Positions 1,086 through 17,852 of a stretch of DNA of 64,000 bases are shown piece by piece. This DNA comes from Candidatus Aminicenantes bacterium (GTDB taxonomy: Bacteria; Acidobacteriota; Aminicenantia; JAMOAD01). The first letter of the stretch is position 1; each line of letters starts with the position of its first letter. The translations under genes and the position numbers were made by a program. Under the pieces are notes generated by a model. That model was given only the letters and a program-made list of their open reading frames with translations, was not told where the DNA came from and did no database searches. The stretch spans positions 6,750 through 70,749 of the forward strand of contig JAMOVU010000191.1 in assembly GCA_027067555.1 (NCBI GenBank), in the 5' to 3' direction.

Positions 1086-1366
1086 AAATCATAATTTTTG
1101 TAGGGGCGGATTCCATATCCGTCCGTTTGGATTTTATATTTATATTTTCGGGCAGAAATTGATTCTGCCCCTACGGTGTTTTCAATTGGATTGTGATGTG
1201 TTGGTTTGTTTGTATGTATCTATGATTTTTCAAACCATTCGTAGGGGCGGATTCCATATCCGTCCGTTTCGGTTTTATATTTATATTTTCGGGCAGAAAT
1301 TGATTCTGCCCCTACTACGGTGTTTTTAAATGAATTGTGATGTATTGGTTTGTTTATATTAATGTA
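1086..1366. repeat. Two tandem copies of a ~145-bp REP/REPIN-like unit (GTAGGGGCGGATTC ... GATTCTGCCCCTAC inverted termini, internal hairpin GGGCAGAAATTGATTCTGCCC, conserved tail)
   Basis: The same unit recurs at 4858, 5303-5590, 10930-11165 and 14384-14489. The termini carry the GTAG/CTAC typical of REPs. The ORF at 1015..1329 is a translation artefact of this repeat. Confidence 0.85.
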
Positions 1367-1377
1367 TTTTTTTCGTT

Positions 1378-1403
1378 GTAGGGGAAATTCATGAATTACG
1401 CCA
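1378..1403. promoter_or_regulatory. Degenerate REP half-site (GTAGGGG) fused to a perfect 12-bp palindrome AATTCATGAATT, immediately 3' of the hsdR stop. It is the left member of imperfect direct repeats flanking the island.
   Basis: tAgGGGaAATTCaTGAATTaCgC here versus tAaGGGcAATTCgTGAATTgCaC at 14348..14373, about 19 of 24 identical in direct orientation. Confidence 0.4.
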
Positions 1404-1411
1404 ACGCTTGT

Positions 1412-4400
1412 TTATGCAGCCGTAAGTTTTTCAGCTATTTGCTCTGCCTGCTCAAGCACTGTTTCAGTCGCAAGTTTTTGCATATCAGGAGGATAGCCAT
1501 ACTTCCTGAGTGTTCTTTTCACTATTACCCTTAATTTTGCCTTTGCACTTTCCCTGATTGTCCAGTCTATGGAAGCATTCTCTTTAACCTTCTGAAACAA
1601 AACCACAGCCAATTCGCGTAATTTTTCCTTTCCCATTAATTCAACAGCACTCTTATTATTTGCCACTGCAGAATAAAATGCATACTCCTCTTCACTCAAG
1701 CCCATTTCCTCAGGCTCTTTATCGGCTTTTTGTATTTCTTTTGCTACATCAATAAGCTCTTCAATGAATTGAGCAGCGGTAATTATTTTATTGTGATATC
1801 TTTTGATAGCATTTTCCAGCATTTCCATTAAAGAACGACTCTGAACTATATTTTTTCTTGCTCTGCTCTTTATCTCATCATTTAATATTTTTTTCAGAAC
1901 CTCCATTGCGATATTCTTATGTTTCATATTTTTTACTTCAAGTAAAAACTCTTCGGACAAAATCTCAATATTGGGCTTTTTTATCCCGGCAGCATCAAAT
2001 ATATCCACAACCTCATCCGATACCAAAGCTTTGTCTATTACCTGTTTTATTGTTGTCTCCAAATCAACCCTTCCCTCTTTGCCCAGAAAAGATTTTGAAT
2101 CAAATTTCACAAGGCGTGATTTCACAGCCTGAAAAAAAGCCACTTCATCCTTAACCAATAGTGCTTCCTCATGAGGTATTGCAATCGCAAATGCCTTTGA
2201 TAATGCGGTCACCTCATCTATATATCTTTTTTTGCCATTCTCCAGTCCCAGAATATGTTCTTCGGCTTCCAATATTATATTCAGCTTTCTTGATGTATCG
2301 GCTTCAAAGTACTCCCTATAATTAAAGCCGAAAAACATCTGCCTTACAATCTCCAGCTTTTCGCTCATTACCATCACTGCTTCTTCCTGAGCAATGGCAG
2401 GTTTTCCTCTTCCACCGCCATCAGCATAAAAAGATAGTGCCTCTTTCAAATCCGAAGCTATTCCCAAATAATCCACAATAAGCCCGGCCGGTTTGTCCTT
2501 GTAAACTCTATTTACCCTTGCTATAGCCTGCATCAGGGTGTGGCCCCTCATCGGTTTGTCTATATACATTGTATGCAAAGATGGCACATCAAACCCTGTA
2601 AGCCACATGTCCCTTACAATCACAAGTTTTAATTCATTCTCCGGATCTTTCATTCTGTCAGCAAGTCTTCTCCTTTGCTCTTTTGTCGTATGATATTTTG
2701 CCATCTTAGGGCCATCCGAAGATGCTGCTGTCATCACAACTTTTATAAATCCTTTGTCCAAATCATCACTATGCCACTCGGGCCTGATTTTAATTATTTC
2801 CTCATACAAATCCACAGCTATCCTTCGGGACATTGCCACAATCATGCCTTTACCATCCATCACTGACAATCTTTCCTCAAAATGCAAAACTATATCCTCA
2901 GCTATTCTTTTTATCCTATCCTTACTTCCTATCAATGCTTCCAATCTGGTCCACTTTACCTTTGCTCTCTCCGTATCAGCAAGCTCCATCCTTGCAAGAT
3001 CCTCGTCCAATTCTTTTATTAATTTTTTCCCTTCCTCCGATATTCCCACCTTTGCGAGCCTGCTCTCATAATAGATAGGCACAGTCATTTTATCCTCTAC
3101 GGATTTTGAAATATCATATACATCTATATAATTCCCAAAAACAGCCGGTGTGTTCTTATCATCTTTTTCAATCGGAGTTCCGGTAAATCCTATATATGTA
3201 GCATTTGGCAGGGCATCTCTCATATACTTTGCAAAACCATACTTGATTTCACCTGTTTCCCTATCCACTTTGCCTTTGAAACCATACTGTGTTCTGTGTG
3301 CCTCATCAGCTATTACAACAATATTACTTCTATCTGATAATTTTTCATAAACATTCCCTTCCTCAGGATGAAATTTCTGAATTGTTGTGAAAACTATACC
3401 CCCTGAAGCAACTTTCAAAAGGTCTTTCAATTCTTTCCTTGTCTGCGCCTGTCTGGGCTCCTGCCTCAAAAGTTCTTTTGAAGAAACAAAGGTTTCAAAC
3501 AATTGATCATCCAGATCATTTCTATCGGTAATTACAACAATAGTCGGATTATTCAATAATTGAATAATCTTTGCAGTGTAAAAAACCATGGAGAGAGATT
3601 TTCCGCTCCCCTGAGTATGCCAGATAACACCTGCCTTTTTGTCTCCCACCGGTTGTTCAAAGGTGCTCCTTAATCCGTAAATTTCAGGATCTATTTTTAC
3701 AAAATCATATCCCCCTCTATTGATTGCACTTGCCCTTAAAGTTTCTCTTACGGCTTTGTTGACAGCATAGTACTGGTGATAAGCGGCAATCTTTTTATCC
3801 AATTTTATTGTAATTTGCTTTGTTTTTTCATCCTCTCTGGAAGATCTGTTAAATACAATAAAATACCTCAAAAAATCAATCAATGTGGTTTTATTTAACA
3901 AACCTTTAATTAGTATCTCCATTTGATTTACAAGAGGGGAGGATTCTGCAATACCATCGGAAGATTTCCATGCCATAAATCTGTCCCATCCGGCGGACAG
4001 ACTTCCAACTTTTGCATCAAGTCCATCCGATATGATAATCATTTCATTAAAAACAAATAATGAAGGAATAGTTGCTTTGTATGTTTGAATCTGCCTGAAA
4101 GCAGACATTAATGTAGCATTTTCATCCGCAGGATTTTTCAGTTCAAATACACCAATGGGGATTCCATTTATGAATAAAACTATATCAGGCCTTTTATTTA
4201 CACCATTTTCTATCACAGTGAATTGATTTACAGCAATAAATTCATTATTTTCGGGTTTTTCAAAATCAACAAGCCATACAATATCCCCCCTTTCTTCTCC
4301 ATCCTTTCTATAAACAACCTTTACCCCTTCTGTTAACAAGCGGTGAAAATTCTCATTGTTAACCAGAAGATCGGGGGAATTAGCCCTTTGCAATTGCCTT

Positions 4401-4627
4401 AATACATCATTTATGGTGTTTTCGGGTATATCAGAATTTATTCTACGAATAGATCGAATCAATACATCATAGAGTAAGACAGTATCATAAGTATTGCGTT
4501 TTTTTACAATAGTGTTTGAGACATCCGAGTCAGGAGCAATATCAGGACCGAAAACATAATCCCATCCGAGAGATTTAAGGAGTTTTATTGCAAAATTTTC
4601 GATATCGTTTTCAATTATTTTTGACAT
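1412..4627 (-). CDS. hsdR: Type I restriction enzyme R subunit (HsdR), 1071 aa
   Basis: Typical HsdR N-terminus MSKIIENDIENFAIKLLKSLGWDY, Walker A TQGSGKSLSMVF, DEAH box VIADEAHRTQ, SF2 motifs, and a C-terminal helical domain. Confidence 0.95.
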   Translation of the reverse strand: MSKIIENDIENFAIKLLKSLGWDYVFGPDIAPDSDVSNTIVKKRNTYDTVLLYDVLIRSIRRINSDIPENTINDVLRQLQRANSPDLLVNNENFHRLLTEGVKVVYRKDGEERGDIVWLVDFEKPENNEFIAVNQFTVIENGVNKRPDIVLFINGIPIGVFELKNPADENATLMSAFRQIQTYKATIPSLFVFNEMIIISDGLDAKVGSLSAGWDRFMAWKSSDGIAESSPLVNQMEILIKGLLNKTTLIDFLRYFIVFNRSSREDEKTKQITIKLDKKIAAYHQYYAVNKAVRETLRASAINRGGYDFVKIDPEIYGLRSTFEQPVGDKKAGVIWHTQGSGKSLSMVFYTAKIIQLLNNPTIVVITDRNDLDDQLFETFVSSKELLRQEPRQAQTRKELKDLLKVASGGIVFTTIQKFHPEEGNVYEKLSDRSNIVVIADEAHRTQYGFKGKVDRETGEIKYGFAKYMRDALPNATYIGFTGTPIEKDDKNTPAVFGNYIDVYDISKSVEDKMTVPIYYESRLAKVGISEEGKKLIKELDEDLARMELADTERAKVKWTRLEALIGSKDRIKRIAEDIVLHFEERLSVMDGKGMIVAMSRRIAVDLYEEIIKIRPEWHSDDLDKGFIKVVMTAASSDGPKMAKYHTTKEQRRRLADRMKDPENELKLVIVRDMWLTGFDVPSLHTMYIDKPMRGHTLMQAIARVNRVYKDKPAGLIVDYLGIASDLKEALSFYADGGGRGKPAIAQEEAVMVMSEKLEIVRQMFFGFNYREYFEADTSRKLNIILEAEEHILGLENGKKRYIDEVTALSKAFAIAIPHEEALLVKDEVAFFQAVKSRLVKFDSKSFLGKEGRVDLETTIKQVIDKALVSDEVVDIFDAAGIKKPNIEILSEEFLLEVKNMKHKNIAMEVLKKILNDEIKSRARKNIVQSRSLMEMLENAIKRYHNKIITAAQFIEELIDVAKEIQKADKEPEEMGLSEEEYAFYSAVANNKSAVELMGKEKLRELAVVLFQKVKENASIDWTIRESAKAKLRVIVKRTLRKYGYPPDMQKLATETVLEQAEQIAEKLTAA

Positions 4628-5306
4628 AGTATTTGTCTTCCTCCCATTTTAAAGGGTTGCTAATAATGTATTCTGCGATTTTCAAATAATCCTTTTCATC
4701 CCTAATAATATGTTCATAATAATTGCGCTGCCAGATTCTTTTTTTAAATGGAGGTAAAAGGTTTTGTTTTACCATTTTTATATATTCAACCGTGGTATAT
4801 CGTTTAAATGTTTGCACGATTTTGGGCAATGATACCTTCTCGATTATTTTACCTTTCGGAGGGATGGATTCCATATCCAACCGTTTTGTTTTTATATTTA
4901 TATTCCGGGCAGAAATTGATTCTGCCCCTACGGATAATTCGATAATTTCTACAATGGCATGAAAATGGTTGGGCATTATTATATATTCATGCAATCTTGC
5001 ATTTGGAAAAATTTTCGGTATTTTCAACCAAATTTTTTCTATCATCTTTCCCGCATCATTCAAAATTATTTTATTTTCAACAATTTTACCAAACAATTCA
5101 ATCCTGCCTTGTGTACATATTGTAATATAATATAAACCCGATTGCGAATAATCATAATTTTTTAATCGGATGGAATGGCGGCGGGGGAGAGGGCGATTGT
5201 GTTTTCTGGTCATGGGAATACCTCGTTTTTGATTATTCTTTGTTTTTCCAATTTTTGCATGGGTAATTTCTGAATTACCTGTATAAAACATTTTGATTTT
5301 TTCCAT
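4611..5306 (-). CDS. REP-associated tyrosine transposase (RAYT) / IS200-family Y1 HuH transposase. It carries an in-frame REPIN insertion. The true start is probably the internal Met (MTRKHN...).
   Basis: HuH motif NHFHAIVEI, SLPKIVQTFKRYTT, and the catalytic Tyr region WQRNYYEHIIRDEKDYLKIAEYIISNP. Between EI and IPPK there is a 26-aa segment (IELSVGAESISARNINIKTKRLDMES) encoded by a REPIN copy. Confidence 0.8.
   Translation of the reverse strand: MEKIKMFYTGNSEITHAKIGKTKNNQKRGIPMTRKHNRPLPRRHSIRLKNYDYSQSGLYYITICTQGRIELFGKIVENKIILNDAGKMIEKIWLKIPKIFPNARLHEYIIMPNHFHAIVEIIELSVGAESISARNINIKTKRLDMESIPPKGKIIEKVSLPKIVQTFKRYTTVEYIKMVKQNLLPPFKKRIWQRNYYEHIIRDEKDYLKIAEYIISNPLKWEEDKYYVKNN
4858..4930. repeat. 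REPIN copy inserted inside the RAYT coding sequence (in-frame, ~26 codons)
   Basis: gGAGGGatGGATTCCATATCC...GGGCAGAAATTGATTCTGCCCCTAC matches the island repeat. The left arm is degenerate. Confidence 0.75.
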
Positions 5307-5590
5307 GATTTTTCAAACCATTCGTAGGGGCGGATTCCATATCCGACCGTTTGGGTTCCATGTTCACATTTTCGGGCAGAAATGGATTCTGCCCCTACGG
5401 TGTTTTTAAATGGATTGTGATGGGATGGTTTGTTTGTATGTAACCATGATTTTTCAAACCATTCGTAGGGGCGGATTCCATATCCGCCCATTTGGGTTTT
5501 ATATTTATATTTTAGGGCAGAAATGGATTCTGCCCCTACGGGGTTTTTAAATAAATTGTGATGTGTTGGTTTGTTTGTTTTGTTGTTATG
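5303..5590. repeat. Two tandem REPIN-like units (leader, REPIN, tail) between the RAYT and the helicase gene
   Basis: GTAGGGGCGGATTCCATATCCG...GGGCAGAAATGGATTCTGCCCCTACGG occurs twice with the conserved tail GTTTTTAAAT.GATTGTGATG.GWTGGTTTGTTTGT. The ORF at 5210..5734 is a translation artefact (VGAESISA.K...GYGIRPYEWFEKSW occurs twice). Confidence 0.85.
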
Positions 5591-5730
5591 ACAGGGTAAT
5601 TTCTTATAATTGGGTGGTTTGGGAATTGCCCTTATGGATTGGGCATTTATTATTCTTAAAAGATAAATTTTATCAATTATATTGAAATTAAAACCGTCAT
5701 TATAATATACAAACATAAAATCAAAAACTT

Positions 5731-7932
5731 TCACAAATTCCCCTTTATCTTCTCAATTTCGTATTTTAAAAAAAGATGCGGTCTTTTATTTATCAAGCTA
5801 ATAACTTCTTTTATTAATTTTTCATCATTACTTATTTCTTCTAAATTAATTTCATTTTTTATTTTTTCTATTGCTGATTTTGGAATGCCATATTCTAATA
5901 ATACAGATAATTTTTCAGGAACAAAATCATTTTCTAATAATGTTGCATAATAAGCATAGTCTCCTGCTTCCAAATTTTTCTTTTCACAAACAAATTTTTG
6001 AATATTATTGACGACATTTAACCATTTGGGAACCTTAAATTGAAACCAATGTCTGAAAATATTAAAAACATCTCTTATAGCTTCATTAAACAACTCATTG
6101 TCATTATATTTTGAGAAATAATTTTTTTCTTTATAGTATGTATAATTTGATTTTATTAAAAAAAGAATATCCTTATTAACAGTATAATCAAAAGTTACTT
6201 TTATTAGACGTTTTTTAGTCATGGGTCTAGTAGTTTCTCCTGATCTAAGTAAATTATCCCATGATAATTCTATCAAATAGCTTAGCTGTTGATAGTTTGG
6301 TATCCCATTCCAAGTTATTAAATTTTGTTTTCTCTTAATATCTTTATATAACTGTTCCAAAATCCTTTTCTGTCCCCAAACAGAAACACCGTTTTTCCTG
6401 AATAACTCTCTTTCGTCGTCAGTTAACTCACTCAATTTTTTATATTGCTCAGTATTTTTTACGATATCTTTTACATCATTTTTATGTAATGTTATTAATA
6501 CTTCATCTTCAATAGGTTTTTGCTGATAAAAAGGTATATCGATAATTAATTTTTCTTTTTTAGGTGGCGGGTTAAAATTATATATTTTCCCAATATAGTG
6601 GATCATAAAACGTCCAGCTCTGCCTTTAATATTAGAGTAATCAAAAAAATCAATAGATTTTCTATTCCCTTTGGTGTTATCAAAAAAAACGATATTTTTG
6701 GCGCTTGTATTTACACCTTCAATTAAAGTAGTAGTACAGAATAAATATTTTAGTCTTCCTTCATTAAAATAATCTACAATTGAAGAATTAATATGTTTAA
6801 TTAGTGCACCATCATTTATGCCAATACTATATTCTAAAATTTCTATTAGATTCCAATTAGTATGTACATTTTCTTTTATCCATTCAATTAATGGCAACTC
6901 ATGATCTATCTTCTTTTCTACTTCATTATTTTTTAAATAATTACAAAACTTCCATGCCAAATCTCTTACTTTTTTAGGAGAAGAACAATAAATAATAAAT
7001 TGTTCTTTTTCAGTATTCAATAACTCAAATAACACATGTTCTTTATATTGTTTCTTTTCCCCACGACTACCAAACTTTTTTTTATGTTCCAAATAGACAT
7101 CTATTATTTTTGATTCAACTAATTTGTAATCAGTTTTGTAAAATACAGCATTGTATTTTTGTGCAAAACCTTCAGAAATCCCATCTATATTTGGACCTAA
7201 TAAATAAAATTTTGGATTGTACTTTTTTAGTAATTTGTAAAATGCATTATTTAAAATATAGGCTCGCTCATCATCTCGTTTTTGGCTTAATTTATAGAAC
7301 TCATCTATAATAAGAAAATCTATTGGTGGTAAATTGGGATATTCCATTACTCGTTCCGCAGTTAATAAAAACAAATTACCTTTATCAGTAGCAGGTTCTT
7401 GTGTTGTTTTGACAATAATTTTATATCTTTCCTTGTATCTTTTTAGTTTTTTTCTAGTCTCATCCAACAAAGCTAAAGTTGGTTGTATTACCACTATATT
7501 CTTATATTTTCCGCTTGCAACAATCTCTTCGATTAATAAACTTTTGCCAAAGCTTGTAGGAGCACTAACTATTAAATTTTTATCACTTTCCAAAATATAT
7601 TTGAGTATTTTTTGCTCTTCATGAAGATAGATATTCTCTAAATTTTCTGATAAATGAAACTCCTTTCTTATTTTTCCATCTATTGTAGATGGTTCACCTC
7701 TTTCTTTTTTTAAATATGGATAAAAACCTGCCATTTCTACTATGTCAAACCAAATATCCTTAGTATGTTCAGGGATTTTTTTGAAGTTCTCTAAAATATA
7801 AATGAGTAATCTGTGACCTAAGTTTTCATTATTTCGTAATTCATTAGCACAAATTTTGGCATAGCTAAAACTTTCATCAACAGATATCGAATCTTTGCTC
7901 TCTATATTTTTTATTATCGCTTCTATATTCAT
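5731..7932 (-). CDS. SF2 (DExH-type) helicase, 733 aa. HamB-like partner of the upstream nuclease-like protein (candidate Hachiman effector).
   Basis: Motif I-like LIVSAPTSFGKSLL, motif II FLIIDEFYKL, motif V-like FCTTTLIEGVN and motif VI IKGRAGRF. There are long N- and C-terminal extensions. The start overlaps the stop of the 338-aa ORF at 7932/7933. Confidence 0.6.
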   Translation of the reverse strand: MNIEAIIKNIESKDSISVDESFSYAKICANELRNNENLGHRLLIYILENFKKIPEHTKDIWFDIVEMAGFYPYLKKERGEPSTIDGKIRKEFHLSENLENIYLHEEQKILKYILESDKNLIVSAPTSFGKSLLIEEIVASGKYKNIVVIQPTLALLDETRKKLKRYKERYKIIVKTTQEPATDKGNLFLLTAERVMEYPNLPPIDFLIIDEFYKLSQKRDDERAYILNNAFYKLLKKYNPKFYLLGPNIDGISEGFAQKYNAVFYKTDYKLVESKIIDVYLEHKKKFGSRGEKKQYKEHVLFELLNTEKEQFIIYCSSPKKVRDLAWKFCNYLKNNEVEKKIDHELPLIEWIKENVHTNWNLIEILEYSIGINDGALIKHINSSIVDYFNEGRLKYLFCTTTLIEGVNTSAKNIVFFDNTKGNRKSIDFFDYSNIKGRAGRFMIHYIGKIYNFNPPPKKEKLIIDIPFYQQKPIEDEVLITLHKNDVKDIVKNTEQYKKLSELTDDERELFRKNGVSVWGQKRILEQLYKDIKRKQNLITWNGIPNYQQLSYLIELSWDNLLRSGETTRPMTKKRLIKVTFDYTVNKDILFLIKSNYTYYKEKNYFSKYNDNELFNEAIRDVFNIFRHWFQFKVPKWLNVVNNIQKFVCEKKNLEAGDYAYYATLLENDFVPEKLSVLLEYGIPKSAIEKIKNEINLEEISNDEKLIKEVISLINKRPHLFLKYEIEKIKGNL

Positions 7933-8949
7933 TTATATCCCTTGAATCTTTGAAAGTTTCCTATGCAATTCTTTCACTAATTCGCTTTTATTAGGAACGG
8001 GGAAAAGCATTACAATAACATTTAAATCAGAATGAATAGGTTCTCCTGAATTTTTATATTTCTTTTGTAACTCTTTAAACTTATTATAGAATATTTCTTT
8101 AAGATACCTTATTTCTCTTTCATATTCTCTAATAAATTCTTCATTTTCATCATTTGTATGGTTTGAAAAGACTTCAGATGTATATGTACACAACAGAGGT
8201 ATTGTTACAGATGAAAACAAATCTTGTAATTTACCATTTTGATTTGCAACTCTGTCCAATTCATCAAACCAATATTCTTTTTGTCTTAAAAATTCTTCAT
8301 ACTGATCTTTTGTATTTAAGTCGATATACTCTTCAAGTTTCAAAAAAGCGTTTTTTTTCTTCCCAATTAGCATAAACTCTCTTTTTAAGAAATCTTTTGT
8401 AAAATGTTCTTCAATATCATTTAATAACGCTTCTACCCCTTTTTTACCGTCTTTATATAACTTAGATTCACCAAGATAAATTGAACTACAGTCAGATTTC
8501 CTTAAATTAGGTCCAATATGAATTGCATCAAAACCATGCACTGTTATACCATCAGAATCCTTAAAGTATATTTTTGATACCAAAGGAACTGTATTAATAA
8601 AATCTCGCAAGATAAGATGTAATATCAATTCACCAAACTCACCTCGTTTTAGATATTTTTCCTGAATATCATCTTCGTACTCACCATTATTTTCTAAATA
8701 TGTTTTTTTTGATTGTTTAAAAACCTCTATTTTATATAGAGATTGAGCCGCCTCTTTTAATATTTTTCTTGTATAAGTCTGTTTTATACCCTCATGAAAT
8801 CCAAAAACAAAATCCACTAAAACATCCATCAATATATTTAATAAATCATCAAGTCTATATTTACCAAAATCGAAACCAACAAAATACGCTCTAAGATCTG
8901 CTTCTGATATATGCTCGGTAATAACTTCTTCAGAACCAAAAACACTCAT
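7933..8949 (-). CDS. PD-(D/E)xK nuclease-like protein, 338 aa (HamA/DUF1837-like candidate)
   Basis: GEFGELILHLIL (helix Glu) ... HGFDAIHIG ... 17 aa ... IYLGESKLY gives the D...ExK geometry. The ORF is wedged between hsdS (4-nt overlap at 8946..8949) and the helicase, so translational coupling is likely. Confidence 0.5.
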   Translation of the reverse strand: MSVFGSEEVITEHISEADLRAYFVGFDFGKYRLDDLLNILMDVLVDFVFGFHEGIKQTYTRKILKEAAQSLYKIEVFKQSKKTYLENNGEYEDDIQEKYLKRGEFGELILHLILRDFINTVPLVSKIYFKDSDGITVHGFDAIHIGPNLRKSDCSSIYLGESKLYKDGKKGVEALLNDIEEHFTKDFLKREFMLIGKKKNAFLKLEEYIDLNTKDQYEEFLRQKEYWFDELDRVANQNGKLQDLFSSVTIPLLCTYTSEVFSNHTNDENEEFIREYEREIRYLKEIFYNKFKELQKKYKNSGEPIHSDLNVIVMLFPVPNKSELVKELHRKLSKIQGI

Positions 8950-10124
8950 ACCTTCACCCTCACCTCCCCACTCATTAATTTTGGCAATAATGTGTCGCGT
9001 AGTTTTTCTAATGTGTGGATTTGTTGTTCGTTGCTTCTGATTTTGTCTAAAAATTTTTTTACTACTGTATGAAAATACAAGGACTTCTTTTCATTAAATG
9101 AAAAGGAGAGTTCAAAAATATCTCGTGCTTTGACTCTTTGATGACTTCCACTGGTTCCGCTTGCTGCGCCAATTAACTCATTAGTTACTTGAATAGATTT
9201 TAACAAATAATAAATAAAGCTAAAGTATTCTTTCTTCTTTGGAAAAACAACTATAAATTCTGTTGAACAAACAGAGTACTCTTTATTTTCAATTTTACCC
9301 CATATTGCCCAAACTCTTGGAAGTCTTGGATTTAATTTTGAGATCAATATTGAATGCTCAAAAACTTTATATTTATTACTTTTTATTTCCATTCCCAATT
9401 CCTTTATTGGTTTTTTCCCTGCGTCAAAAGCTGGAATACTAAAATGCAAGAATTCTATCTCCGGATCTTTGTTAGGCACAATATTTACTTTTTTATGTTC
9501 TGCAATCTCAAATAGCTGCTTCTCCTCCCAATCCTCCTCCGCCTCTTCTATAAACCATTTTCTAAATAGAGTTTCTGCCATGGCTTCTAATGTTTTGTTT
9601 TGGCGGTGGAGGAGATCTATTTTGTCATCAAGGGAGGAGAGGACAGAGGCAATGGCGCGTTGTTCGTCAATTGATTCTGGGATTATCCATTCTGTTTTTT
9701 TCATAAAATTCCATTCGGCTCTTGGCATTCTAGTTCCTGATGCTCCTTTTGTTGCTAAGTCTATAAATTCGTAAGTTGCAAATAAGTAAAACAAAAAATT
9801 TTTATCCGTATTTTCTTTGGGTGCAACTACCCAAATATCAGTAGAACAAATCCCTTTAAACTTAGGATTGTACAATTTCCTAAAATATGGTCTTAATTTA
9901 CCAAATAAAAACTCTTCTTCAGTGAAAATATATTTATTACTTTTAATATCATCCGAAAAACCAATAGTTTTTAATCTTAAAGAAGATTCCTCTATGTGTT
10001 CTAAACCTATATACGGTAATTTTTCATTACCAACTTTCCACGCTCTCTTTAATACCTGTGCTATTTCTTCTAATTTTACTTTTTTCCAACCTTTTAGCAT
10101 TCTTTCATCCATTCTCTGCACCAC
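8946..10124 (-). CDS. hsdS: Type I restriction-modification specificity subunit (HsdS), 392 aa, with two target-recognition domains
   Basis: Conserved central and C-terminal coiled-coil repeats LDDKIDLLHRQNKTLEAMAETLFRKWF and LDKIRSNEQQIHTLEKLRDTLLPKLMSGEVRV. Confidence 0.9.
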   Translation of the reverse strand: MVQRMDERMLKGWKKVKLEEIAQVLKRAWKVGNEKLPYIGLEHIEESSLRLKTIGFSDDIKSNKYIFTEEEFLFGKLRPYFRKLYNPKFKGICSTDIWVVAPKENTDKNFLFYLFATYEFIDLATKGASGTRMPRAEWNFMKKTEWIIPESIDEQRAIASVLSSLDDKIDLLHRQNKTLEAMAETLFRKWFIEEAEEDWEEKQLFEIAEHKKVNIVPNKDPEIEFLHFSIPAFDAGKKPIKELGMEIKSNKYKVFEHSILISKLNPRLPRVWAIWGKIENKEYSVCSTEFIVVFPKKKEYFSFIYYLLKSIQVTNELIGAASGTSGSHQRVKARDIFELSFSFNEKKSLYFHTVVKKFLDKIRSNEQQIHTLEKLRDTLLPKLMSGEVRVKV

Positions 10125-10917
10125 TTTTTATTTCCTCAACATAAGATTTTAGCCATTCGTATTTTTGTTTGACTTTCTCATCTGTACTATTTATATTTTT
10201 TTCAACTATCTCTTCTACTTCCCCTATTATTCGTTCGTAATTACTTTTACTTTCTCTGTTCCATACTATAGAAAATCTTTTATTTTCATTTATTATATTT
10301 TCTCCAATTTTACGTAACACTTTCCTATTCAATAAATCAAGAAAATAGATCCCATCCTTATCTTTTTTGATTCCATTAATAAGAAAACCATCATTTTGTT
10401 TTTCAAGAAAAGGAGATCCTTTTATGTTTTTGTTTTTAATGTATTCAACTAATTTTTCGTCAACTACAATCCTCGGATAAATAGCAATTTCGGATTCAAG
10501 TTTGTAAGCTTCTACCAAGCCAGGACCAATCAAAACATTTTCTTCTTTTTTCGGAAAATACATTTTACCTACTGTTATTGCTCCTCTGAAACAAAATCCC
10601 TTTTCCCAAAATCTATCCTGCAAATATCTGACAATCAAAAAAAGATGAGGTAAATTACGCGGCTCTTTTTTCATTATAAACGCGAAACTATCCGAAAAAT
10701 AAAAACTTCTTATATCCAAATTTCCATCTTTTGATGTTTCTTTGCTTGTAGATTTCGTAATCTTTGAATTGATTTTAATTACCTTAATTATATCTTCTAA
10801 TAACTTTTTATTTTCCCCATTTTCTATCTCTTTTAATAAATTTTTAACCCCCAAAACATCCAAATAGCATATAAAACAATCTTCTAAATTATATTCGCTC
10901 ATTTTAATTTCTCCCAT
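10105..10917 (-). CDS. Hypothetical protein of 270 aa with a class III nucleotidyl-cyclase-like palm-domain signature (possible signalling nucleotide cyclase; uncertain)
   Basis: ICYLDVLGVKNL resembles FADIVGFT. FYFSDSFAFI resembles IGDAYMAVF. FRGAITVGKMYF resembles RIGIHTGPVV. GPGLVEAYKLESE resembles GDTVNLAARLES, but the transition-state Asn/Arg are absent. The ORF overlaps the hsdS start by 20 nt. Confidence 0.35.
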   Translation of the reverse strand: MGEIKMSEYNLEDCFICYLDVLGVKNLLKEIENGENKKLLEDIIKVIKINSKITKSTSKETSKDGNLDIRSFYFSDSFAFIMKKEPRNLPHLFLIVRYLQDRFWEKGFCFRGAITVGKMYFPKKEENVLIGPGLVEAYKLESEIAIYPRIVVDEKLVEYIKNKNIKGSPFLEKQNDGFLINGIKKDKDGIYFLDLLNRKVLRKIGENIINENKRFSIVWNRESKSNYERIIGEVEEIVEKNINSTDEKVKQKYEWLKSYVEEIKSGAENG

Positions 10918-10929
10918 GTTTTGGTTTTT

Positions 10930-11165
10930 TGTTTATTTTATTTTTATATTTTCGGGCAGAAATTGATTCTGCCCCTACGGGGTTTTTAAATAAATTGTGA
11001 TGGGATGGTTTGTTTGTATGTAACCATGATTTTTTAAACCATTCGTAGGGACGGATTCCATATCCGCCCGTTTGGGTTTCATGTTCATATTTTCGGGCAG
11101 AAATAGATTCTGCCCCTACGGTATTTTCAATTGGATTGTGATGGGATGGTTTGTTTGTATCATTA
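10930..11165. repeat. About 1.5 REPIN-like units (a right-half partial copy followed by a full copy) between the cyclase-like gene and the AlbA_2 gene
   Basis: TTTTCGGGCAGAAATTGATTCTGCCCCTACGG, then the tail, then GTAGGGACGGATTCCATATCCGCCCG...CTGCCCCTACGG. The ORF at 10904..11179 is a repeat artefact. Confidence 0.85.
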
Positions 11166-11175
11166 ATTGTTTTAA

Positions 11176-12771
11176 TCATTTTTTATTTTTAACCATTTTT
11201 TCTTCTTTAATCAAAACATAAAATGCCAAACCGCGTTTAGTTAACTTGAATTTTTGTTTCGGACTGTTCAAATTATCTTTAATTGTATGCTCTATTAACT
11301 TAAAGTTATGTAGTTTTTTCAATATTTTATTTAACCCTCCGGAAATAGATTTTTGCCCCAATTCCAAAGAAATTTCTTTACGTGATTTAGGAGAATTCAA
11401 TAATATAAACAATATGCGCAAGAAAAGAGACTCTTGCTCTATCTCTTGCCTCAACTCTTGCCTCAACTCTTGCCTCAACTCTTGCTTTTCATTCTCAAGC
11501 CCGGCTTTTAGCCATCGGATAATTTCCTCGGAAAAAATTATAGATGAAGGGAATAGTTGTCCGTAATCATCTCTGGTTTTTTGTTTTTGGTCCGTAATCG
11601 TTCGTGATTGGGCATAATCGGTTTTTATGAATGTTACTCTGAATGAAAATCCGGGCTCGCTCCATTCCATCTTTATTTCCGGATATTTTTTTAATTCTTT
11701 GGAAATCAGTTTAAGCCCGTTTCCCCATTGCTCTATGATACCGAGCTTTTTAAAAACAGGTGCCAATACCTTATTTCTTATATCTGATTGACCTGATTCC
11801 ATATCATCAAAATCAATGGTAGGCATAAGCTTCCCGGGGCTTGTGATCTCTATTTTATCGTCAAATATGGCAATTTTAATATCTTTGCCTTTTAAAGAAT
11901 AATCTCTGTGAATCACTGCATTTCGTATGAGTTCACGGATTGCTACTACAGGATACTCCCACCTGTCTTTTCTGTAAACTCCCTCATATGAGGAGCCCTG
12001 AGAGATGTGCCTCAAAACAAATTTATAAGCCTCTTCCGCCTGAAAGCTCAACGGAGTTTCTATTGTTTTTTGATCTATGAATTCTCCGGGAATTTTTCCC
12101 TTGAATCTTGCACACTCTATTTTTGCATAAGGAAAAAGTCTTTTCCTGATTTCATCATTTGAAAGTAATACAAGGGCATTTGTGGGAAAATCCCTGTTCT
12201 GATCTGTGATAATCAAGTTCAGTTTTCTTAAAATTGTTTTGGTAAGCTTCTCTCCGGTGATTTCCTCAAATTGATTTCTAAATTGAGAGATGGTTAATTC
12301 ATTCGCTTCTTTTAAATGCACAAGAATAGAATCAAAGGAAATGTTTTGTTTCTGTCTTTCTAACTCTTCAATCATATCTTTGTCCGCAAGGCGGTTTGTT
12401 GAGCCGACTCGGATATAAGTTCCTTTCCATTTTCCCTTGTTTTTCAAATAATAGGGAGGATTGCTTCCTTTGTAAATTCTAACTTTTATAATATGTTTAC
12501 CTTGATAATTTACAAAAGAAATATCGGGCAGTACTATCGGATAGCAATTATCATGAATGATGTTGCTTATTTTTTCTTCCATTGAAATCAACTTTTCCTC
12601 GGAAATTCCTATGATTTTTCTTGGTTCATTTTTTATTCCTATGAAAATCTCACCTCCCGCATCATTAGCAAAAGCAACAACAGTTTTACATAAATCATTT
12701 TTTAAAGGAAGTGTTTCTTTAAATTCAAGCTTTCTTCCTTCTGGCTGTTTTAATAATTCTTCAATTTTCAT
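11176..12771 (-). CDS. AlbA_2 (Schlafen-like) plus HATPase_c_4 ATP-binding protein with a C-terminal wHTH. This is the family often annotated as a RecG-like transcriptional regulator in Type I R-M loci. 531 aa.
   Basis: [11 protein letters not shown]...[19 protein letters not shown] (AlbA_2), [14 protein letters not shown] (HATPase_c_4), and a C-terminal HTH-like segment. It contains (ELRQ)x3 encoded by a 15-bp tandem repeat at about 11440-11490. Confidence 0.75.
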
Positions 12772-14344
12772 TATCTTTTTCCGAATCAGATAAATCTATC
12801 TTTTCAAGATTTTCAAGAATCAATTTGTTTAATCTCTCTTCTTCCTTTAATTGTTCAAGAAATTCTGCCTTTAATTTTGAAAACCTTTCTTCAAAGTCAA
12901 AATCATCATCTTCTTCCGGAAGTCCGACATAACGACCCGGAGTGAGCACATAATCAAGCTCTCTTACCTCTTCTATTTTTACGGATTTGCAAAATCCCTT
13001 TACATCCTCATAGCTTTCATCTCCCCTCTGCCAATTGTGATAAGTATCAGCAATCTTTCTTATATCCTCCTCCGTTAATACACGGGTCCTTCTGTTTATA
13101 AGAGTACCCATATCTCTTGCATCTATGAAGAGAATCTCCCCTTTCCTATTTTTTTTGTTTCTGTTTAAAAACCATAAAGAGGCAGGTATCTGAGTGTTTA
13201 AAAATAGTTTTGTCGGAAGATTGACAATGCATTCGACAAGATCATTTTCAATAATATTCTTTCTTATCTCATATTCTCCTTTGCTTTTTGTGGTTAATGC
13301 TCCTTTTGCAAGAACAAAGCCAGCTCTTCCATTCGGATTCAGGTGATAGATAAAGTGTTGTATCCATGCGTAATTCGCATTTCCCACAGGGGGGACTCCG
13401 TATTTCCATCTGCCATCACTTCTGAGCAATTCTCCGCTCCAATCACTGTCATTGAAAGGAGGATTTGCTATTACAAAATCAGCTTTCAGATCTTTGTGAG
13501 CATCATTCAAAAAAGAGCCCTCAGGATTCCATTTTACCTGAGTTGAGTCAATCTGTCTTATCGCAAGGTTCATTTTACAGAGACGCCATGTAGTCTGATT
13601 ACTCTCCTGTCCGTATATTGATATGTCATCCACTTTTCCCTGATGCTCTTTTACAAATTTTTCGGATTGAACAAACATTCCGCCGGAACCGCAGCATGGG
13701 TCAAACACTCTTCCTCTGTAAGGTTCAAGCATCTCAACAAGTAGTTCAACAACACTTCGAGGAGTGTAAAATTGCCCCCCTTTTCTTCCCTCGGCAAGAG
13801 CAAATTGCCCTAAAAAATACTCGAAAACATGCCCCAAAATATCTGCACTTCTCTTTGTAGCCTCTCCCAGTGCAATATTACCTATCAAATCAATCAAACC
13901 GCCTAAAGACAGAGGATCCAGATTCCCCTTTGCATACACCTTTGGCAAAACACCTTTTAATGATGGATTTTCCTTTTCTATTATATCCATTGCATTATCC
14001 AATATCTTTCCTATTTCCGGATTTTTTGCATTATTAAGAAGGTATGACCATCTTGCTTCGGGTGGGACATAAAAAATATTTTTAGCCCTGTATTCATCTA
14101 TATCTTCGGGATCCGCCCCTTCTTCCACTTTGCTTTTTAGTTTTTCATACAGGTCTTCAAAAGCGTCTGAGATATACCGCAAAAATATTAAACCCAATAC
14201 CACATGTTTGTATTCAGCAGCATCAATATTTTTTCTTAGTTTATCCGCAGCTTTCCACAACTGTTTTTCAAGATTTTCCTCTTTTTCTTTTTTATTCATA
14301 TTGCCCTCTTTTTTTATTTTATCTTTTTTATTTGTGATTGGCAA
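12761..14344 (-). CDS. hsdM: Type I R-M N6-adenine DNA methyltransferase subunit (HsdM). The ORF begins at a TTG; the ATG ([15 protein letters not shown]) 15 codons in is the likelier start.
   Basis: HsdM N-domain [38 protein letters not shown] motif [11 protein letters not shown], and catalytic VIANPPFN. Confidence 0.93.
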
Positions 14345-14353
14345 GAATTAAGG

Positions 14354-14369
14354 GCAATTCGTGAATTGC
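14354..14369. promoter_or_regulatory. Perfect 16-bp palindrome GCAATTC-GT-GAATTGC sitting 10 nt 5' of the annotated TTG start of hsdM, and about 50 nt 5' of the likelier ATG. It is a candidate operator and the right member of the island-flanking repeats.
   Basis: The 7-bp inverted repeat was read directly from the sequence. It lies between an AT-rich -10-like TATTAT and the hsdM start. Its core AATTCRTGAATT is shared with the site at 1386..1397. Confidence 0.4.
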
Positions 14370-14383
14370 ACGCATAATAATTT

Positions 14384-14489
14384 TTGATGTTTTCCATGAT
14401 TTTTTAAACCCTTTGTAGGGGCGGATTCTGTATCCGACCGTTTGGATTTTATGTTCATATTTTCGGGCAGAAATGGATTCTGCCCCTAC
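14384..14489. repeat. Single REPIN-like unit at the right edge of the island
   Basis: Leader CCATGATTTTTTAAACCCTTT, then GTAGGGGCGGATTCTGTATCCGACCG...GGGCAGAAATGGATTCTGCCCCTAC. Confidence 0.85.
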
Positions 14490-17797: not shown

Positions 17798-17852
17798 TTT
17801 CGGTAGTATAATTGTCTATTTCTTTTTTGTCAAGGTTTTGAAATATATTAGC

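What the first reader, a model, noticed from the sequence alone, without database searches (positions are those of the whole stretch)
1086..14489. REPIN-like ~145-bp repeat family (GTAG termini, internal hairpin) confined to the defense island
Eight whole or partial copies occur at 1100, 1241, 4858, 5324, 5466, about 10940 (half), 11045 and 14415. None is seen in the other ~50 kb. Each unit has near-perfect inverted termini (GTAGGGGCGGATTC / GATTCTGCCCCTAC), an internal stem-loop (GGGCAGAAAT-N-GATTCTGCCC) and a conserved ~55-bp tail. They occur singly or as tandem doublets, exactly at the boundaries between gene modules, and a cognate RAYT lies in the same island. REP/RAYT systems are mostly described in Proteobacteria. 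A REPIN population this clustered may be mediating cassette shuffling in the island, or acting as terminators/insulators between modules.
Basis: seen in the sequence. Interest (0 to 1): 0.65.

Follow-up and report, generated by a model that had tools for sequence, protein, structure and literature searches.

The report
REPIN repeats around their RAYT transposase
These are small hairpin-forming DNA repeats (REPINs) clustered around the domesticated transposase gene (RAYT) that acts on them; this kind of element is already known, but here, as in relatives from several other bacterial lineages, it sits inside a restriction-modification defence operon, which I did not find described.

Summary
There are eight copies, all on the + strand, between 1100 and 14489, and none in the other ~50 kb. 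Each core is a REPIN: two 25-nt hairpins with a GTAG foot, in inverted orientation and about 25 nt apart. Lineage-specific flanks extend the core into a 141-nt, BIME-like unit. The gene at 4611-5213 (- strand) is a RAYT/TnpA_REP of Quentin subclass 2.4 (Bertels Group 4). The copy at 4858 is not intergenic. It lies in frame inside this gene, which is a published hallmark of that subclass. The ideas of cassette shuffling and of "module boundaries" are only weakly supported, and "mostly Proteobacteria" is out of date. Two further results emerged. First, the two REP arms are near-invariant in at least ten lineages named as different phyla or classes, although the RAYT proteins are only 42-68% identical. 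Second, this RAYT clade sits in a conserved hsdM-hsdS-RAYT-hsdR cassette that appears to be horizontally transferred. Genome-wide copy number in the source organism could not be determined. Verdict: a new member of a known kind, in an undescribed and conserved genomic home.

The parts
1100..1362 (+). REPIN doublet c1 + c2. Cores are 1100-1174 and 1241-1315. A 66-nt linker spans 1175-1240 and a 44-nt right flank spans 1319-1362. The doublet lies between the acrB-like gene end (984) and the hsdR end (1412).
   Evidence: On the + strand the left hairpin plus its T-run matches the intrinsic-terminator pattern.
1378..1402 (+). Decayed hairpin of a second REP family (GTAGGGGAAATTCATGAATTACGCC), 10 nt beyond the hsdR stop codon.
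   Evidence: The intact 'double-foot' form GTAGGGGCAATTCATGAATTGCCCCTAC is present in the Deferribacter locus L150.
1412..4627 (-). hsdR, the Type I restriction subunit.
   Evidence: Pfam HSDR_N, SWI2_SNF2 and T1RH-like_C; PADLOC REase_I.
4611..5213 (-). RAYT / TnpA_REP gene (200 aa from M32 of the long ORF 4611-5306). Its stop overlaps the hsdR start by 17 nt.
   Evidence: Pfam Y1_Tnp. NCBIfam REP_Tyr_transpos scores 69.5 bits, below the cut-off of 80. Sequence match to 4ER8 and best fold match to 4ER8. The motifs NHFH, WQ, Y182 and YIISNP are conserved. The same 200-aa protein is called as a gene in public records.
4858..4931 (-). REPIN c3, in frame inside the RAYT gene between the HUH and Tyr motifs. 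It encodes VGAESISARNINIKTKRLDMESIPP. The A-type arm is perfect; the G-type arm is decayed and its foot reads CTCC instead of CTAC.
   Evidence: The encoded segment (residues 95-123) is modelled with pLDDT below 50, consistent with a loop.
5303..5583 (+). REPIN doublet c4 + c5. The left flank is 5303-5323, the cores are 5324-5398 and 5465-5539, and the right flank is 5540-5583. It lies between the HamB stop (5731) and the RAYT start (5213).
5731..8949 (-). Hachiman genes HamB (5731-7932) and HamA (7933-8949), nested in the R-M operon.
   Evidence: Pfam HamA; PADLOC HamA1 at 1.5e-103 and HamB1 at 2e-234.
8946..10124 (-). hsdS, the specificity subunit.
10105..10917 (-). Gene of unknown function (265-270 aa) inserted between the AlbA_2 gene and hsdS.
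   Evidence: No Pfam, PADLOC or NCBIfam hit. PHROG 23933, of unknown function, at 1e-25.
10932..11163 (+). Half copy c6 (spacer remnant plus A-type arm, 10932-10978), linker 10979-11044, full copy c7 (core 11045-11119) and right flank 11120-11163. They lie between the unknown gene and the AlbA_2 gene stop (11176).
11176..12771 (-). AlbA_2 / HATPase_c_4 protein, a common passenger of Type I R-M operons.
   Evidence: Homologues sit in the same position in L010 and L150.
12761..14344 (-). hsdM methyltransferase. The likely true start is near 14299, the 512-aa call in the public record.
14347..14372 (+). Second decayed hairpin of the second REP family (TTAAGGGCAATTCGTGAATTGCACGC), just upstream of hsdM.
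   Evidence: The 18-nt motif is found only here and at 1382-1399; 0.05 matches are expected by chance.
14394..14489 (+). REPIN c8: left flank 14394-14414 and core 14415-14489, with no right flank. Its GTAG foot supplies the TAG stop codon of the HIT-family gene (14486-14974, - strand).

Best explanation
This is a REPtron: a domesticated HUH/Y1 transposase gene (RAYT, also called TnpA_REP; Quentin subclass 2.4, Bertels Group 4) together with its cognate REPINs.

Anatomy. Each REPIN is two 25-nt REP hairpins with a GTAG foot, in inverted orientation and about 25 nt apart. One arm is 'G-type', GTAGGGGCGGATTCCATATCCGCCC. The other is 'A-type', GTAGGGGCAGAATCnATTTCTGCCC. The two differ at two stem pairs, each by a compensated change. 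In this lineage the core travels with a 22-nt left flank and a 44-nt right flank, giving a 141-nt unit that can sit in tandem, as in E. coli BIMEs. One REPIN lies in frame inside the RAYT gene and encodes a disordered loop. Seven lie outside genes. The whole REPtron is nested in a Type I R-M operon, and the hsdM-hsdS-RAYT-hsdR order was inherited together with that operon.

Shown here: the anatomy; covariation in the hairpins; RAYT family membership; the intragenic copy; the conserved synteny; the restriction of copies to the island within about 69 kb.

Inferred mechanism, from what is established for E. coli TnpA_REP and IS200/IS605 TnpA. The RAYT binds the GTAG-footed hairpin on single-stranded DNA, for example at the replication fork, then cuts and rejoins it. 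This copies REPINs preferentially to nearby sites. The seed would be the copy inside or next to its own gene, since the intragenic and extragenic copies share the AT-rich spacer. In a tightly packed operon the copies persist only in the two intergenic gaps, at the two ends, and in the tolerant loop of the RAYT itself.

Likely side effects. On the sense (-) strand the hairpins are very stable but have no U-tract, so they would be mRNA-structure or 3'-exonuclease barriers rather than terminators. On the antisense (+) strand the G-type hairpin is followed by a T-run, so it could terminate acrB read-through and antisense transcription.
For: Repeat family and coordinates.

Folding. Core z-scores are -3.1 to -5.2 as ssDNA, giving either two 8-bp hairpins or one long REPIN hairpin. 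The sense-strand RNA of a doublet folds at -93.7 kcal/mol, z = -8.5.

Covariation. Among 298 REP instances across the fetched loci, the two variable stem pairs are A-T/A-T (159), G-C/T-A (116), A-T/T-A (15) and G-C/A-T (2). Only 6 instances are mispaired.

RAYT identity. Y1_Tnp; REP_Tyr_transpos is the best NCBIfam hit; 4ER8 by sequence and as best fold match; NHFH, WQ, Y182 and YIxxNP conserved. These match the subclass 2.4 signature in Table 1 of PMC6006769.

Intragenic REP. All 16 aligned homologues carry an insert that starts with an invariant VGA straight after the HUH strand. That paper describes this as unique to subclass 2.4. The segment is modelled as a low-confidence loop.

Shared spacer between c3 and the extragenic copies.

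Copying out of the gene. In Deferribacter, the extragenic REP upstream of the RAYT matches the intragenic copy at 90% over 41 nt, including 6 coding nt upstream of GTAG (family D2). This points to copying from the gene outward.

Synteny hsdS-RAYT-hsdR in L001, L010, L091, L150, L151/152, L156/157, L158 and L159.

Terminator-like pattern on the + strand only.
Against: - No mobility was observed. The one other strain available (99.8% identical) has the same copies, so there is no presence/absence polymorphism and no empty site.
- The conserved flanks and the in-register similarity of whole doublets (family D1) suggest copying of units larger than a REPIN, by recombination or duplication, rather than precise RAYT cut-and-paste.
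- The G-type arm is imperfect in 6 of 7 copies, so many copies may be inert.
- With only 8 copies the family falls short of the 'high copy, dispersed' definition of REPs, and the genome-wide number is unknown.
- Nothing here tests the proposed RNA-level effects.
Confidence: 0.8

Rival explanations
1. The REPINs are working recombination or landing sites through which defence cassettes (Hachiman, the unknown 270-aa gene) were captured into the R-M operon. They would be hairpin sites processed as single strands by the RAYT, in loose analogy to integron attC sites and IntI.
For: Simpler relatives have hsdM-hsdS-RAYT-hsdR (L151/L152) or AlbA_2-hsdS-RAYT-hsdR (L010). Compared with these, each extra module in the window adjoins a REPIN doublet: c7/c6 next to the unknown gene, and c5/c4 next to HamAB. 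Copy c6 is cut off inside its spacer, 15-30 nt from the start of the unknown gene, which looks like a junction scar. REPs of two families bracket the whole operon.
Against: HamA overlaps hsdS by 4 nt and the unknown gene overlaps hsdS by 20 nt, so neither module has a REPIN on both sides. In Deferribacter abyssi, three passenger genes (RhuM/Fic, DUF1016/YhcG, AlbA_2) sit between hsdM and hsdS with no REP at any junction. L151 has no REP outside the RAYT gene. A REP between hsdS and the RAYT is also present in L001 and L150, which lack Hachiman. REPINs occupying whatever gaps exist explains the same pattern.
Confidence: 0.1
2. The copies are kept mainly because they are useful cis-regulatory elements of the operon. 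They would act as mRNA stabilisers or attenuators that set the ratio of hsdM/S to hsdR, and as terminators or insulators against convergent and antisense transcription. The RAYT would be only their historical source.
For: All copies share one orientation relative to the operon. The sense-strand RNA structures are very stable. Terminator-like hairpin plus T-run motifs occur on the antisense strand, including directly downstream of the convergent acrB-like gene. A REPIN sits immediately before RAYT-hsdR. The A-type arm is perfect in all 8 copies, 0 mismatches in 192 nt against 12 in 175 for the G-type arm, p = 1e-4. From my own knowledge, E. coli REPs are known to stabilise upstream mRNA.
Against: There are only 5 independent sites, so a shared orientation has p of about 0.06 by chance, and strand-specific insertion would also produce it. 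Relatives with the same operon manage with no intergenic REPINs (L151). There are no expression data. The tail is not significantly structured, z about -1.
Confidence: 0.25
3. The 141-nt units are ordinary MITEs, deletion derivatives of an insertion sequence with terminal inverted repeats, or plain local segmental duplications. In either case they would be unrelated to the RAYT.
For: Each unit has terminal inverted repeats and non-REP flanks. Whole doublets resemble each other in register. The composite unit was found nowhere else.
Against: The 'inverted repeats' are two self-complementary hairpins with GTAG feet. They are identical to the REP arms found beside and inside RAYT genes in many other genomes. 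No other transposase is present in the island. One copy lies at the canonical in-frame position of the RAYT.
Confidence: 0.03
4. Assembly artefact: repeats misplaced or collapsed by a metagenome assembler.
For: Short-read assemblies break at these repeats. The Logan contigs end in them, and the ENA contig ends 107 nt beyond the c1/c2 doublet.
Against: Two independent assemblies (the window's 75.7-kb record and ENA k141_783370) agree across all eight copies, with a single SNP in the repeats. The copies differ from one another by 3-11%, which is enough for unambiguous placement.
Confidence: 0.02

Closest known systems
REPtrons of TnpA_REP subclass 2.4 (Quentin, Siguier, Chandler & Fichant 2018, PMC6006769), equal to Group 4 RAYTs (Bertels et al. 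2017, PMC5581495)
   Same: The HuH motif NH[IFV]H, WQ and YIxNNP-like motifs, and a length of about 194-200 aa. Long GTAG-footed REPs with a G-C-rich stem base lie close to the gene. A REP is inserted in frame between the HuH and Tyr motifs. The taxonomic distribution is scattered across many phyla.
   Different: Here the REPtron is nested between hsdS and hsdR of a Type I R-M operon. Neither paper mentions this context: 'restriction' and 'hsd' occur 0 times in PMC6006769. The extragenic REPINs carry conserved flanks and form 141-nt tandem units. They extend 3.4 kb to one side of the gene and 9.2 kb to the other, whereas that paper surveyed +/- 1 kb.
REPINs of Pseudomonas fluorescens SBW25 (Bertels & Rainey 2011; from my own knowledge)
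   Same: Two REPs in inverted orientation, separated by a short spacer, able to fold into one long hairpin, and associated with a single-copy RAYT.
   Different: SBW25 has hundreds of copies dispersed over the genome, and its RAYT belongs to another group. Here 8 copies were seen, all within 13.4 kb. The two arms are distinct, compensated variants.
BIMEs of E. coli (mosaics of REP Y/Z units with conserved linker motifs; from my own knowledge)
   Same: REPs of alternating orientation are joined by conserved non-palindromic linkers, and the unit can be repeated in tandem.
   Different: The linkers have no sequence relationship to those of E. coli. Binding of IHF, gyrase or Pol I is unknown. The RAYT belongs to subclass 2.4, not 2.2.
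IS200/IS605 TnpA (IS608, ISDra2)
   Same: The same HUH/Y1 fold: Foldseek ranks these directly after 4ER8. The presumed chemistry on single-stranded hairpins is also the same.
   Different: The RAYT gene is single-copy here and has no IS ends. The repeats are REP hairpins rather than left and right IS ends.
Rickettsia palindromic elements and intragenic REPs (Di Nocera et al. 2013, PMC3733652)
   Same: A palindromic repeat inserted in frame in a protein-coding gene. The GTAG foot supplies a TAG stop codon to a neighbouring ORF, as at the HIT gene here.
   Different: The host gene is the RAYT itself, and the insertion is conserved at one position across the whole clade.

Membership tests
REP (repetitive extragenic palindrome), GTAG class | A GT[AG]G tetranucleotide at the 5' foot of the hairpin. 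| tested here: met
   GTAG is present on 13 of the 14 hairpins reported by the generic finder. The exception is the copy-c7 G-type arm, which has GTAG but a G-to-A change in the stem. The fifteenth arm, the decayed G-type arm of the intragenic copy, has GGAG and is not reported by that finder.
REP (repetitive extragenic palindrome), GTAG class | A 20-40 nt imperfect palindrome that folds as a stem-loop, with compensatory variation in the stem. | tested here: met
   8-bp stems with 5-nt loops; fold z-scores -3.1 to -5.2. 292 of 298 instances keep both variable pairs, and four pair combinations are seen.
REP (repetitive extragenic palindrome), GTAG class | High copy number, dispersed in extragenic space of the genome. 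| tested here: inconclusive
   The window has 8 REPINs, all within 13.4 kb, and none in about 55 kb of flanking sequence. No other contig of the source genome could be obtained. The same REP is dispersed over a 5.7-Mb Desulfobacteraceae contig, with at least 38 separate 8-kb blocks.
REPIN | Two REPs in inverted orientation, separated by a short spacer, able to form one long hairpin. | tested here: met
   Six full pairs plus the decayed intragenic pair. The long-hairpin fold is the minimum-free-energy structure for copy c4 as DNA and for both units of the doublet as RNA.
RAYT / TnpA_REP (HUH Y1 nuclease) | An HUH motif and a catalytic Tyr on the IS200-like fold. | tested here: met
   NHFH at residues 82-85. 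Y182 aligns with Y115 of E. coli TnpA_REP. Foldseek top hit is 4ER8, E = 4.6e-6, followed by IS608 and ISDra2 TnpA.
RAYT / TnpA_REP (HUH Y1 nuclease) | Passes a curated family model. | tested here: inconclusive
   NCBIfam REP_Tyr_transpos NF047646 is the best hit but scores 69.5 bits against a cut-off of 80. The match is split by the REP-encoded insert. Pfam Y1_Tnp scores 24.1 bits against a cut-off of 23.
RAYT / TnpA_REP (HUH Y1 nuclease) | Single copy, flanked by its cognate REPs (REPtron). | tested here: met
   One copy in the window. REPINs lie 111 nt upstream of the gene and one lies inside it.
TnpA_REP subclass 2.4 (Quentin 2018) | Motifs NH[IFV]H / WQ / YIxNNP, about 194 aa, and a REP inserted in frame between HuH and Tyr. 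| tested here: met
   NHFH, WQ and YIISNP (S in place of the first N), 200 aa. The insert VGAESISAR...MESIPP occupies residues 95-119.
RAYT activity on these REPs | Binding and cleavage of the single-stranded GTAG hairpin. | not testable with these tools
   Needs biochemistry.
BIME-like mosaic | REPs of alternating orientation joined by conserved linkers, repeatable in tandem. | tested here: met
   Period 141 nt. A 66-nt linker is conserved between the doublets at 1100, 5324 and 10904.
MITE | Terminal inverted repeats plus target-site duplication, derived from an IS. | tested here: not met
   The termini are REP hairpins. No parent IS is present in the window and no direct repeat flanks the units. 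No empty site was available for a strict test of target-site duplication.
Intrinsic terminator | A G+C-rich hairpin followed by a U-run on the transcribed strand. | tested here: inconclusive
   The pattern is met only on the + strand, antisense to the operon and sense for acrB, for c1, c2 and c5. No copy matches on the - strand.

The most novel reading that the evidence does not exclude
The RAYT may be an integral, co-transferred part of a Type I R-M cassette (hsdM-hsdS-RAYT-hsdR, with the RAYT translationally coupled to hsdR) rather than a chance passenger, and its GTAG hairpins may be the cis sites through which the cassette is moved or remodelled as single-stranded DNA. That remodelling would include capture of extra defence genes such as Hachiman, and bracketing of the operon by REPs. 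If so, this would be a HUH-nuclease, hairpin-based platform for defence cassettes. It would also explain why the REP arms stay near-invariant across phyla while the protein drifts. The conserved architecture and its horizontal spread are shown here; the functional link is not.
Probability: 0.12. Interest if true: 0.8.

Novelty: new member of a known kind. Interest (0 to 1): 0.45.

Why it matters
RAYTs and REPINs are usually presented as vertically inherited, single-copy 'domesticated' transposases with their own within-genome replicator populations, studied mostly in Pseudomonas and enterobacteria. This locus is a clean example from an uncultured, low-G+C lineage. It also shows three things that can now be tested.

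1. One clade of subclass 2.4 RAYTs lives inside a Type I restriction-modification operon. It travels with that operon between distant lineages: hsdM is 82-85% identical across hosts whose housekeeping MutS is far more diverged. This offers a concrete route for RAYT persistence and horizontal spread, namely hitch-hiking on an addictive defence module.

2. The two REP arms are more conserved than the catalytic-motif codons of the enzyme that is thought to recognise them, and one REPIN always sits inside the gene. The intragenic copy is therefore a candidate 'master copy' or autoregulatory site.

3. A cultured carrier exists (Deferribacter abyssi), so experiments are possible.

For annotation, the ORFs at 5210-5734 and 10904-11179 that public records call as genes run largely through the repeats and have no family match; they are probably not real genes.

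Tried and rejected
1. Genome-wide distribution in the source organism.
- A metagenome scan with the lineage-specific tail ATTGTGATGNNNTGGTTTGTTT gave 28 single hits, all chance matches of 22-32 nt.
- Searching for other ORFs that read through the 141-nt unit found only the two ORFs of this island. The word-indexed search missed the positive control. The exhaustive search recovered it and nothing else convincing. Both ORF clusters come only from this contig and its sister-strain contig.
- Result: the composite unit has been seen nowhere else, but a dispersed population of bare REPINs in the source genome cannot be excluded.

2. Tail as a decayed copy of RAYT coding sequence flanking the intragenic REPIN. 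Local alignments were no better than shuffles, p = 0.08-0.83. Rejected.

3. Tail as a structured element. Fold z-score about -1. Rejected.

4. Known RNA family. No Rfam match at gathering threshold, and only E of about 0.6 noise at relaxed threshold.

5. Sigma-70 promoters in the units. Promoter-like sites in the region are no more frequent than in shuffles, 60 against 61.

6. The operon as a REP-bounded transposon in general. L151 has no REP or other convincing repeat at the operon ends. Not general.

7. Presence/absence polymorphism. The sister strain L118 has identical copies.

8. Viral origin. The A-type REP occurs once in 2.9 million viral contigs.

9. Replication-strand inference from GC skew. 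The skew flips with gene orientation at 40-44 kb, so it tracks coding strand and was not used.

10. Structure of the unknown 270-aa protein. The single-sequence model had pLDDT 42.7 and is unusable.

Full report

Yes. The repeat finder recovers a family with a 141-nt period. The right-hand motif GGGCAGAAATNGATTCTGCCCCTAC occurs eight times without a mismatch, always on the + strand, at 1150, 1291, 4907, 5374, 5515, 10954, 11095 and 14465. None is expected by chance. The left-hand motif occurs at 1100, 1241, 5324, 5465, 11045 and 14415. It is decayed at 4858 and missing from the half copy near 10932. A generic search for GTAG followed by a hairpin finds these 14 hairpins in the 64 kb and nothing else. 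About 5 kb beyond the right end, read from a sister strain, is also free of them. Five independent sites all falling in the first 14.5 kb has p of about 6e-4 under uniform placement.

**2. Anatomy**

- Each 75-nt core holds two 25-nt hairpins with an 8-bp stem, a 5-nt loop and a GTAG foot, in inverted orientation and about 25 nt apart.
- As single strands the cores fold well beyond shuffled controls (z = -3.1 to -5.2). They form either two hairpins or one long REPIN hairpin.
- The sense-strand RNA of a doublet folds at -93.7 kcal/mol, z = -8.5.
- The two arms are not identical. The 'G-type' arm is GTAGGGGCGGATTCCATATCCGCCC and the 'A-type' arm is GTAGGGGCAGAATCnATTTCTGCCC. They differ at two stem pairs, both compensated.
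- Over 298 instances in all fetched loci, those two pairs are A-T/A-T (159), G-C/T-A (116), A-T/T-A (15) or G-C/A-T (2), with only 6 mispaired. That is clear covariation for the hairpin.
It is a 44-nt right flank that follows every full extragenic copy, plus a 22-nt left flank that precedes a core. It is not significantly structured.
- In the window the A-type arm is perfect in 8 of 8 copies, while the G-type arm is imperfect in 6 of 7: 0 mismatches in 192 nt against 12 in 175, p = 1e-4. I have no tested explanation for this asymmetry.

**3. Gene context**

All island genes are on the - strand. In order of transcription they are:

- hsdM (12761-14344)
- an AlbA_2/HATPase_c_4 protein (11176-12771)
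- a gene of unknown function (10105-10917)
- hsdS (8946-10124)
- Hachiman HamA (7933-8949) and HamB (5731-7932)
- a Y1 transposase (4611-5213)
- hsdR (1412-4627)

So this is a Type I R-M operon with nested passengers. The rest of the window is housekeeping: MutS, Mfd, BamA, TamB, arginase and three tRNAs.

The repeats lie in five places:
- downstream of hsdR, facing the convergent acrB-like gene (c1, c2);
- inside the transposase gene (c3);
- between HamB and the transposase gene (c4, c5);
- between the AlbA_2 gene and the unknown gene (c6, c7);
- between the HIT-family gene and hsdM (c8). There the GTAG foot supplies the HIT stop codon, a feature noted for GTAG REPs by Di Nocera et al. (PMC3733652).

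There is no copy at the hsdS/HamA junction, which overlaps by 4 nt. 'Exactly at module boundaries' therefore overstates the pattern. The copies fill the gaps that exist.

**4. The transposase is a RAYT, and copy c3 is inside it**

- The 200-aa protein has NHFH (the HUH motif), WQ, and Y182, which aligns with the catalytic Y115 of E. coli TnpA_REP. It also has YIISNP.
- Its best NCBIfam model is REP_Tyr_transpos. The score is below cut-off because the match is split by an insert.
- An AlphaFold model has a confident core. Its best PDB match is 4ER8, the E. coli RAYT bound to a REP hairpin, followed by IS608 and ISDra2 TnpA.
- Copy c3 reads in frame as VGAESISARNINIKTKRLDMESIPP, between the HUH strand and the next helix. 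This segment is modelled as a low-confidence loop.
- All 16 aligned homologues carry an insert at this position that begins with an invariant VGA, which is GTAGGGGC read as codons.
- This is a published hallmark. Quentin et al. 2018 (PMC6006769) describe subclass 2.4 as having NH[IFV]H/WQ/YIxNNP motifs, about 194 aa, abundance in Cyanobacteria and Bacteroidetes, and REPs uniquely inserted in frame between HuH and Tyr. It corresponds to Group 4 of Bertels et al. 2017 (PMC5581495).
- The REPIN can sit in either polarity inside the gene. The peptide VGAE...MESAPT corresponds to the A-type arm first, and VGAD...MDSAPT to the G-type arm first.
- In the window the intragenic and extragenic copies share polarity and the AT-rich spacer, so they belong to one lineage.

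**5. The same REP in distant genomes**

- Many are in Desulfobacteraceae, including at least 38 dispersed blocks on a single 5.7-Mb contig.
- Others are in MAGs labelled TA06, Planctomycetota, Lentimicrobiaceae, Lentisphaeria, Sulfurovum/Campylobacterota, Aminicenantia and Clostridia.
- In these genomes the A-type and G-type arms again pair up in inverted orientation. The arms are invariant and the spacers are variable.
- RAYT proteins from these loci are only 42-68% identical to the window's.
- At the nucleotide level the intragenic arms show 92% and 86% mean pairwise identity, against 67-79% for the codons of the catalytic motifs.
- MAG binning errors could inflate the taxonomic spread. The divergence of the linked proteins shows that these are nevertheless separate lineages.
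- The 66-nt tail is absent from all of them.

**6. A conserved home: hsdM-hsdS-RAYT-hsdR**

- Among loci recovered through the REP pattern, the RAYT sits between hsdS and hsdR in L001 (TA06), L010 (Lentimicrobiaceae) and L091 (Lentisphaeria). It sits beside hsdS, hsdM and a RhuM-like gene in L054 and L067.
- I then sampled the closest protein homologues without regard to context.
  - Deferribacter abyssi (P0006) and P0009/P0010 lie between hsdS and hsdR.
  - More distant homologues (P0024, P0038, P0058) do not.
- A rough neighbour-joining tree put the window in a clade with L001, L150, L151, P0002, P0003 and P0005.
- The prediction that the three untested members would also be R-M-embedded held for all three.
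- In this cassette the RAYT stop overlaps the hsdR start by 11-17 nt.
- Identities to the window are hsdM 82-85%, hsdR 59-70%, RAYT 60-68% and hsdS 31-44%.
- The window's MutS has nearest named relatives in Aminicenantes at only 50-52%. I infer that the cassette moves horizontally.
- Full-text searches found no description of a RAYT inside Type I R-M operons.

**7. What distinguishes the window**

- Relatives have one to a few REPs in or next to the RAYT gene. The window has four additional extragenic sites spread over the operon, and these carry the lineage-specific flanks.
- A second, decayed REP family (GGG[CA]AATTC[AG]TGAATT[GA]C) occurs exactly twice. One copy lies just inside c2 and the other just inside c8, so the pair brackets hsdM...hsdR. 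Its intact 'double-foot' form is present in the Deferribacter locus.
- Compared with simpler cassettes, the unknown gene and Hachiman each adjoin a REPIN doublet. Copy c6 is truncated close to the start of the unknown gene.
- This is suggestive of recombination at REPINs, but neither passenger is flanked on both sides. The Deferribacter passengers have no REPs at their junctions.

**8. Mechanism**

Shown: a RAYT with an intact catalytic signature; cognate hairpins under structural selection; one copy in the gene and seven nearby; inheritance of the arrangement with the R-M operon.

Inferred, from the established chemistry of E. coli TnpA_REP and IS200/IS605 TnpA. The enzyme binds the GTAG-footed hairpin on single-stranded DNA and cuts and rejoins it, seeding copies preferentially nearby. 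In Deferribacter, the extragenic REP upstream of the gene matches the intragenic copy including 6 coding nucleotides (family D2). This argues for copying from the gene outward.

Counter-points. The conserved flanks and the in-register similarity of whole doublets fit recombination or duplication of larger units as well as, or better than, precise transposition. No mobility was seen between the two available strains.

Transcription. On the sense strand the hairpins lack a U-tract. On the antisense strand, c1, c2 and c5 match a terminator pattern. Any regulatory role would therefore be mRNA structuring together with antisense or convergent termination. This is untested.

**9. Verdict**

The element type, including the in-frame copy, is already described, so it is a new member of a known kind from an uncultured lineage. 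'Confined to the island' holds for about 69 kb but is untested genome-wide. The cassette-shuffling idea has weak support. The added value lies in two things: the conserved, apparently horizontally transferred hsdM-hsdS-RAYT-hsdR cassette, and the cross-phylum invariance of the two REP arms. Both are worth a specialist's attention.

Noticed in passing
window 1412-14344; L001, L150, L151, L152, L156, L157, L158, L159: A conserved cassette hsdM-hsdS-RAYT-hsdR, with the RAYT stop overlapping the hsdR start by 11-17 nt. It is found in Deferribacter abyssi, a TA06 MAG and several metagenome contigs. hsdM is 82-85% identical to the window's, although the window's MutS is at most about 52% identical to any named relative. 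I did not find this described in the paper library.
   Followed up: yes
window 1378-1402 and 14347-14372; L150 8256-8283: Two decayed copies of a second, palindromic 'double-foot' REP family bracket the whole R-M operon, just inside the outermost REPINs. In Deferribacter the intact form lies within the stretch that aligns to hsdR as one continuous tblastn match.
   Followed up: partly
window 10105-10917 (-): A 265-270 aa protein inserted between the AlbA_2 gene and hsdS has no Pfam, PADLOC or NCBIfam match; its only match is PHROG 23933, of unknown function, at 1e-25. By eye, the pattern D-x-L-G ... FSDSF ... RGAITVG recalls class III nucleotidyl cyclases. That is a recollection, not a test. 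A single-sequence structure model was unusable (pLDDT 42.7).
   Followed up: partly
window 5210-5734 (-), 10904-11179 (-), 1015-1329 (+): These ORFs of 174, 91 and 104 aa run largely through the repeat units, which are open in frame because 141 = 47 x 3. They have no family match, and the first two are called as genes in public records. They are probably spurious.
   Followed up: yes
L151 7268-7350 versus L152: Two near-identical loci differ in RAYT length (191 against 199 aa) by one extra copy of a 24-nt REP-derived tandem repeat encoding ADSISAQH. The intragenic insert therefore varies in length between close strains.
   Followed up: partly
window 10983, 11443-11454, 17503-17843 versus L118: The sister-strain contig (ENA ERZ27262658 k141_783370) is identical across the island except for one SNP in a repeat tail, one SNP at 11539 and a 12-nt indel in the AlbA_2 gene. 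It then shows a cluster of SNPs and loses synteny beyond 17843, which suggests a recombination breakpoint next to the LytB gene.
   Followed up: partly
window 14486-14489: The TAG stop codon of the HIT-family gene is the GTAG foot of REPIN c8.
   Followed up: yes
L155 7133-7157; L027 (RAYT at 513-1115): Some RAYT homologues carry a second in-frame REP insert, in the N-terminal region before the LND(A)G motif.
   Followed up: no
L001 130-262; L156 1503-2100: The hsdS-RAYT gap of relatives holds debris of RAYT 5' ends or HUH regions together with REPs: a stranded MSRYNPNI start in L001, and a fragment of RAYT residues 60-102 in L156. This indicates repeated local duplication and rearrangement around the REPs.
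   Followed up: partly
window 33486-33557 (-), 40158-40247 (+), 42914-42988 (-): Three tRNA genes. GC skew flips sign around the + strand MutS gene (40-44 kb), so in this window skew follows the coding strand.
   Followed up: no
L161 (IMGVR_UViG_3300005512_002797) 1619-1643: This is the only exact A-type REP match among 2.9 million viral contigs.
   Followed up: no
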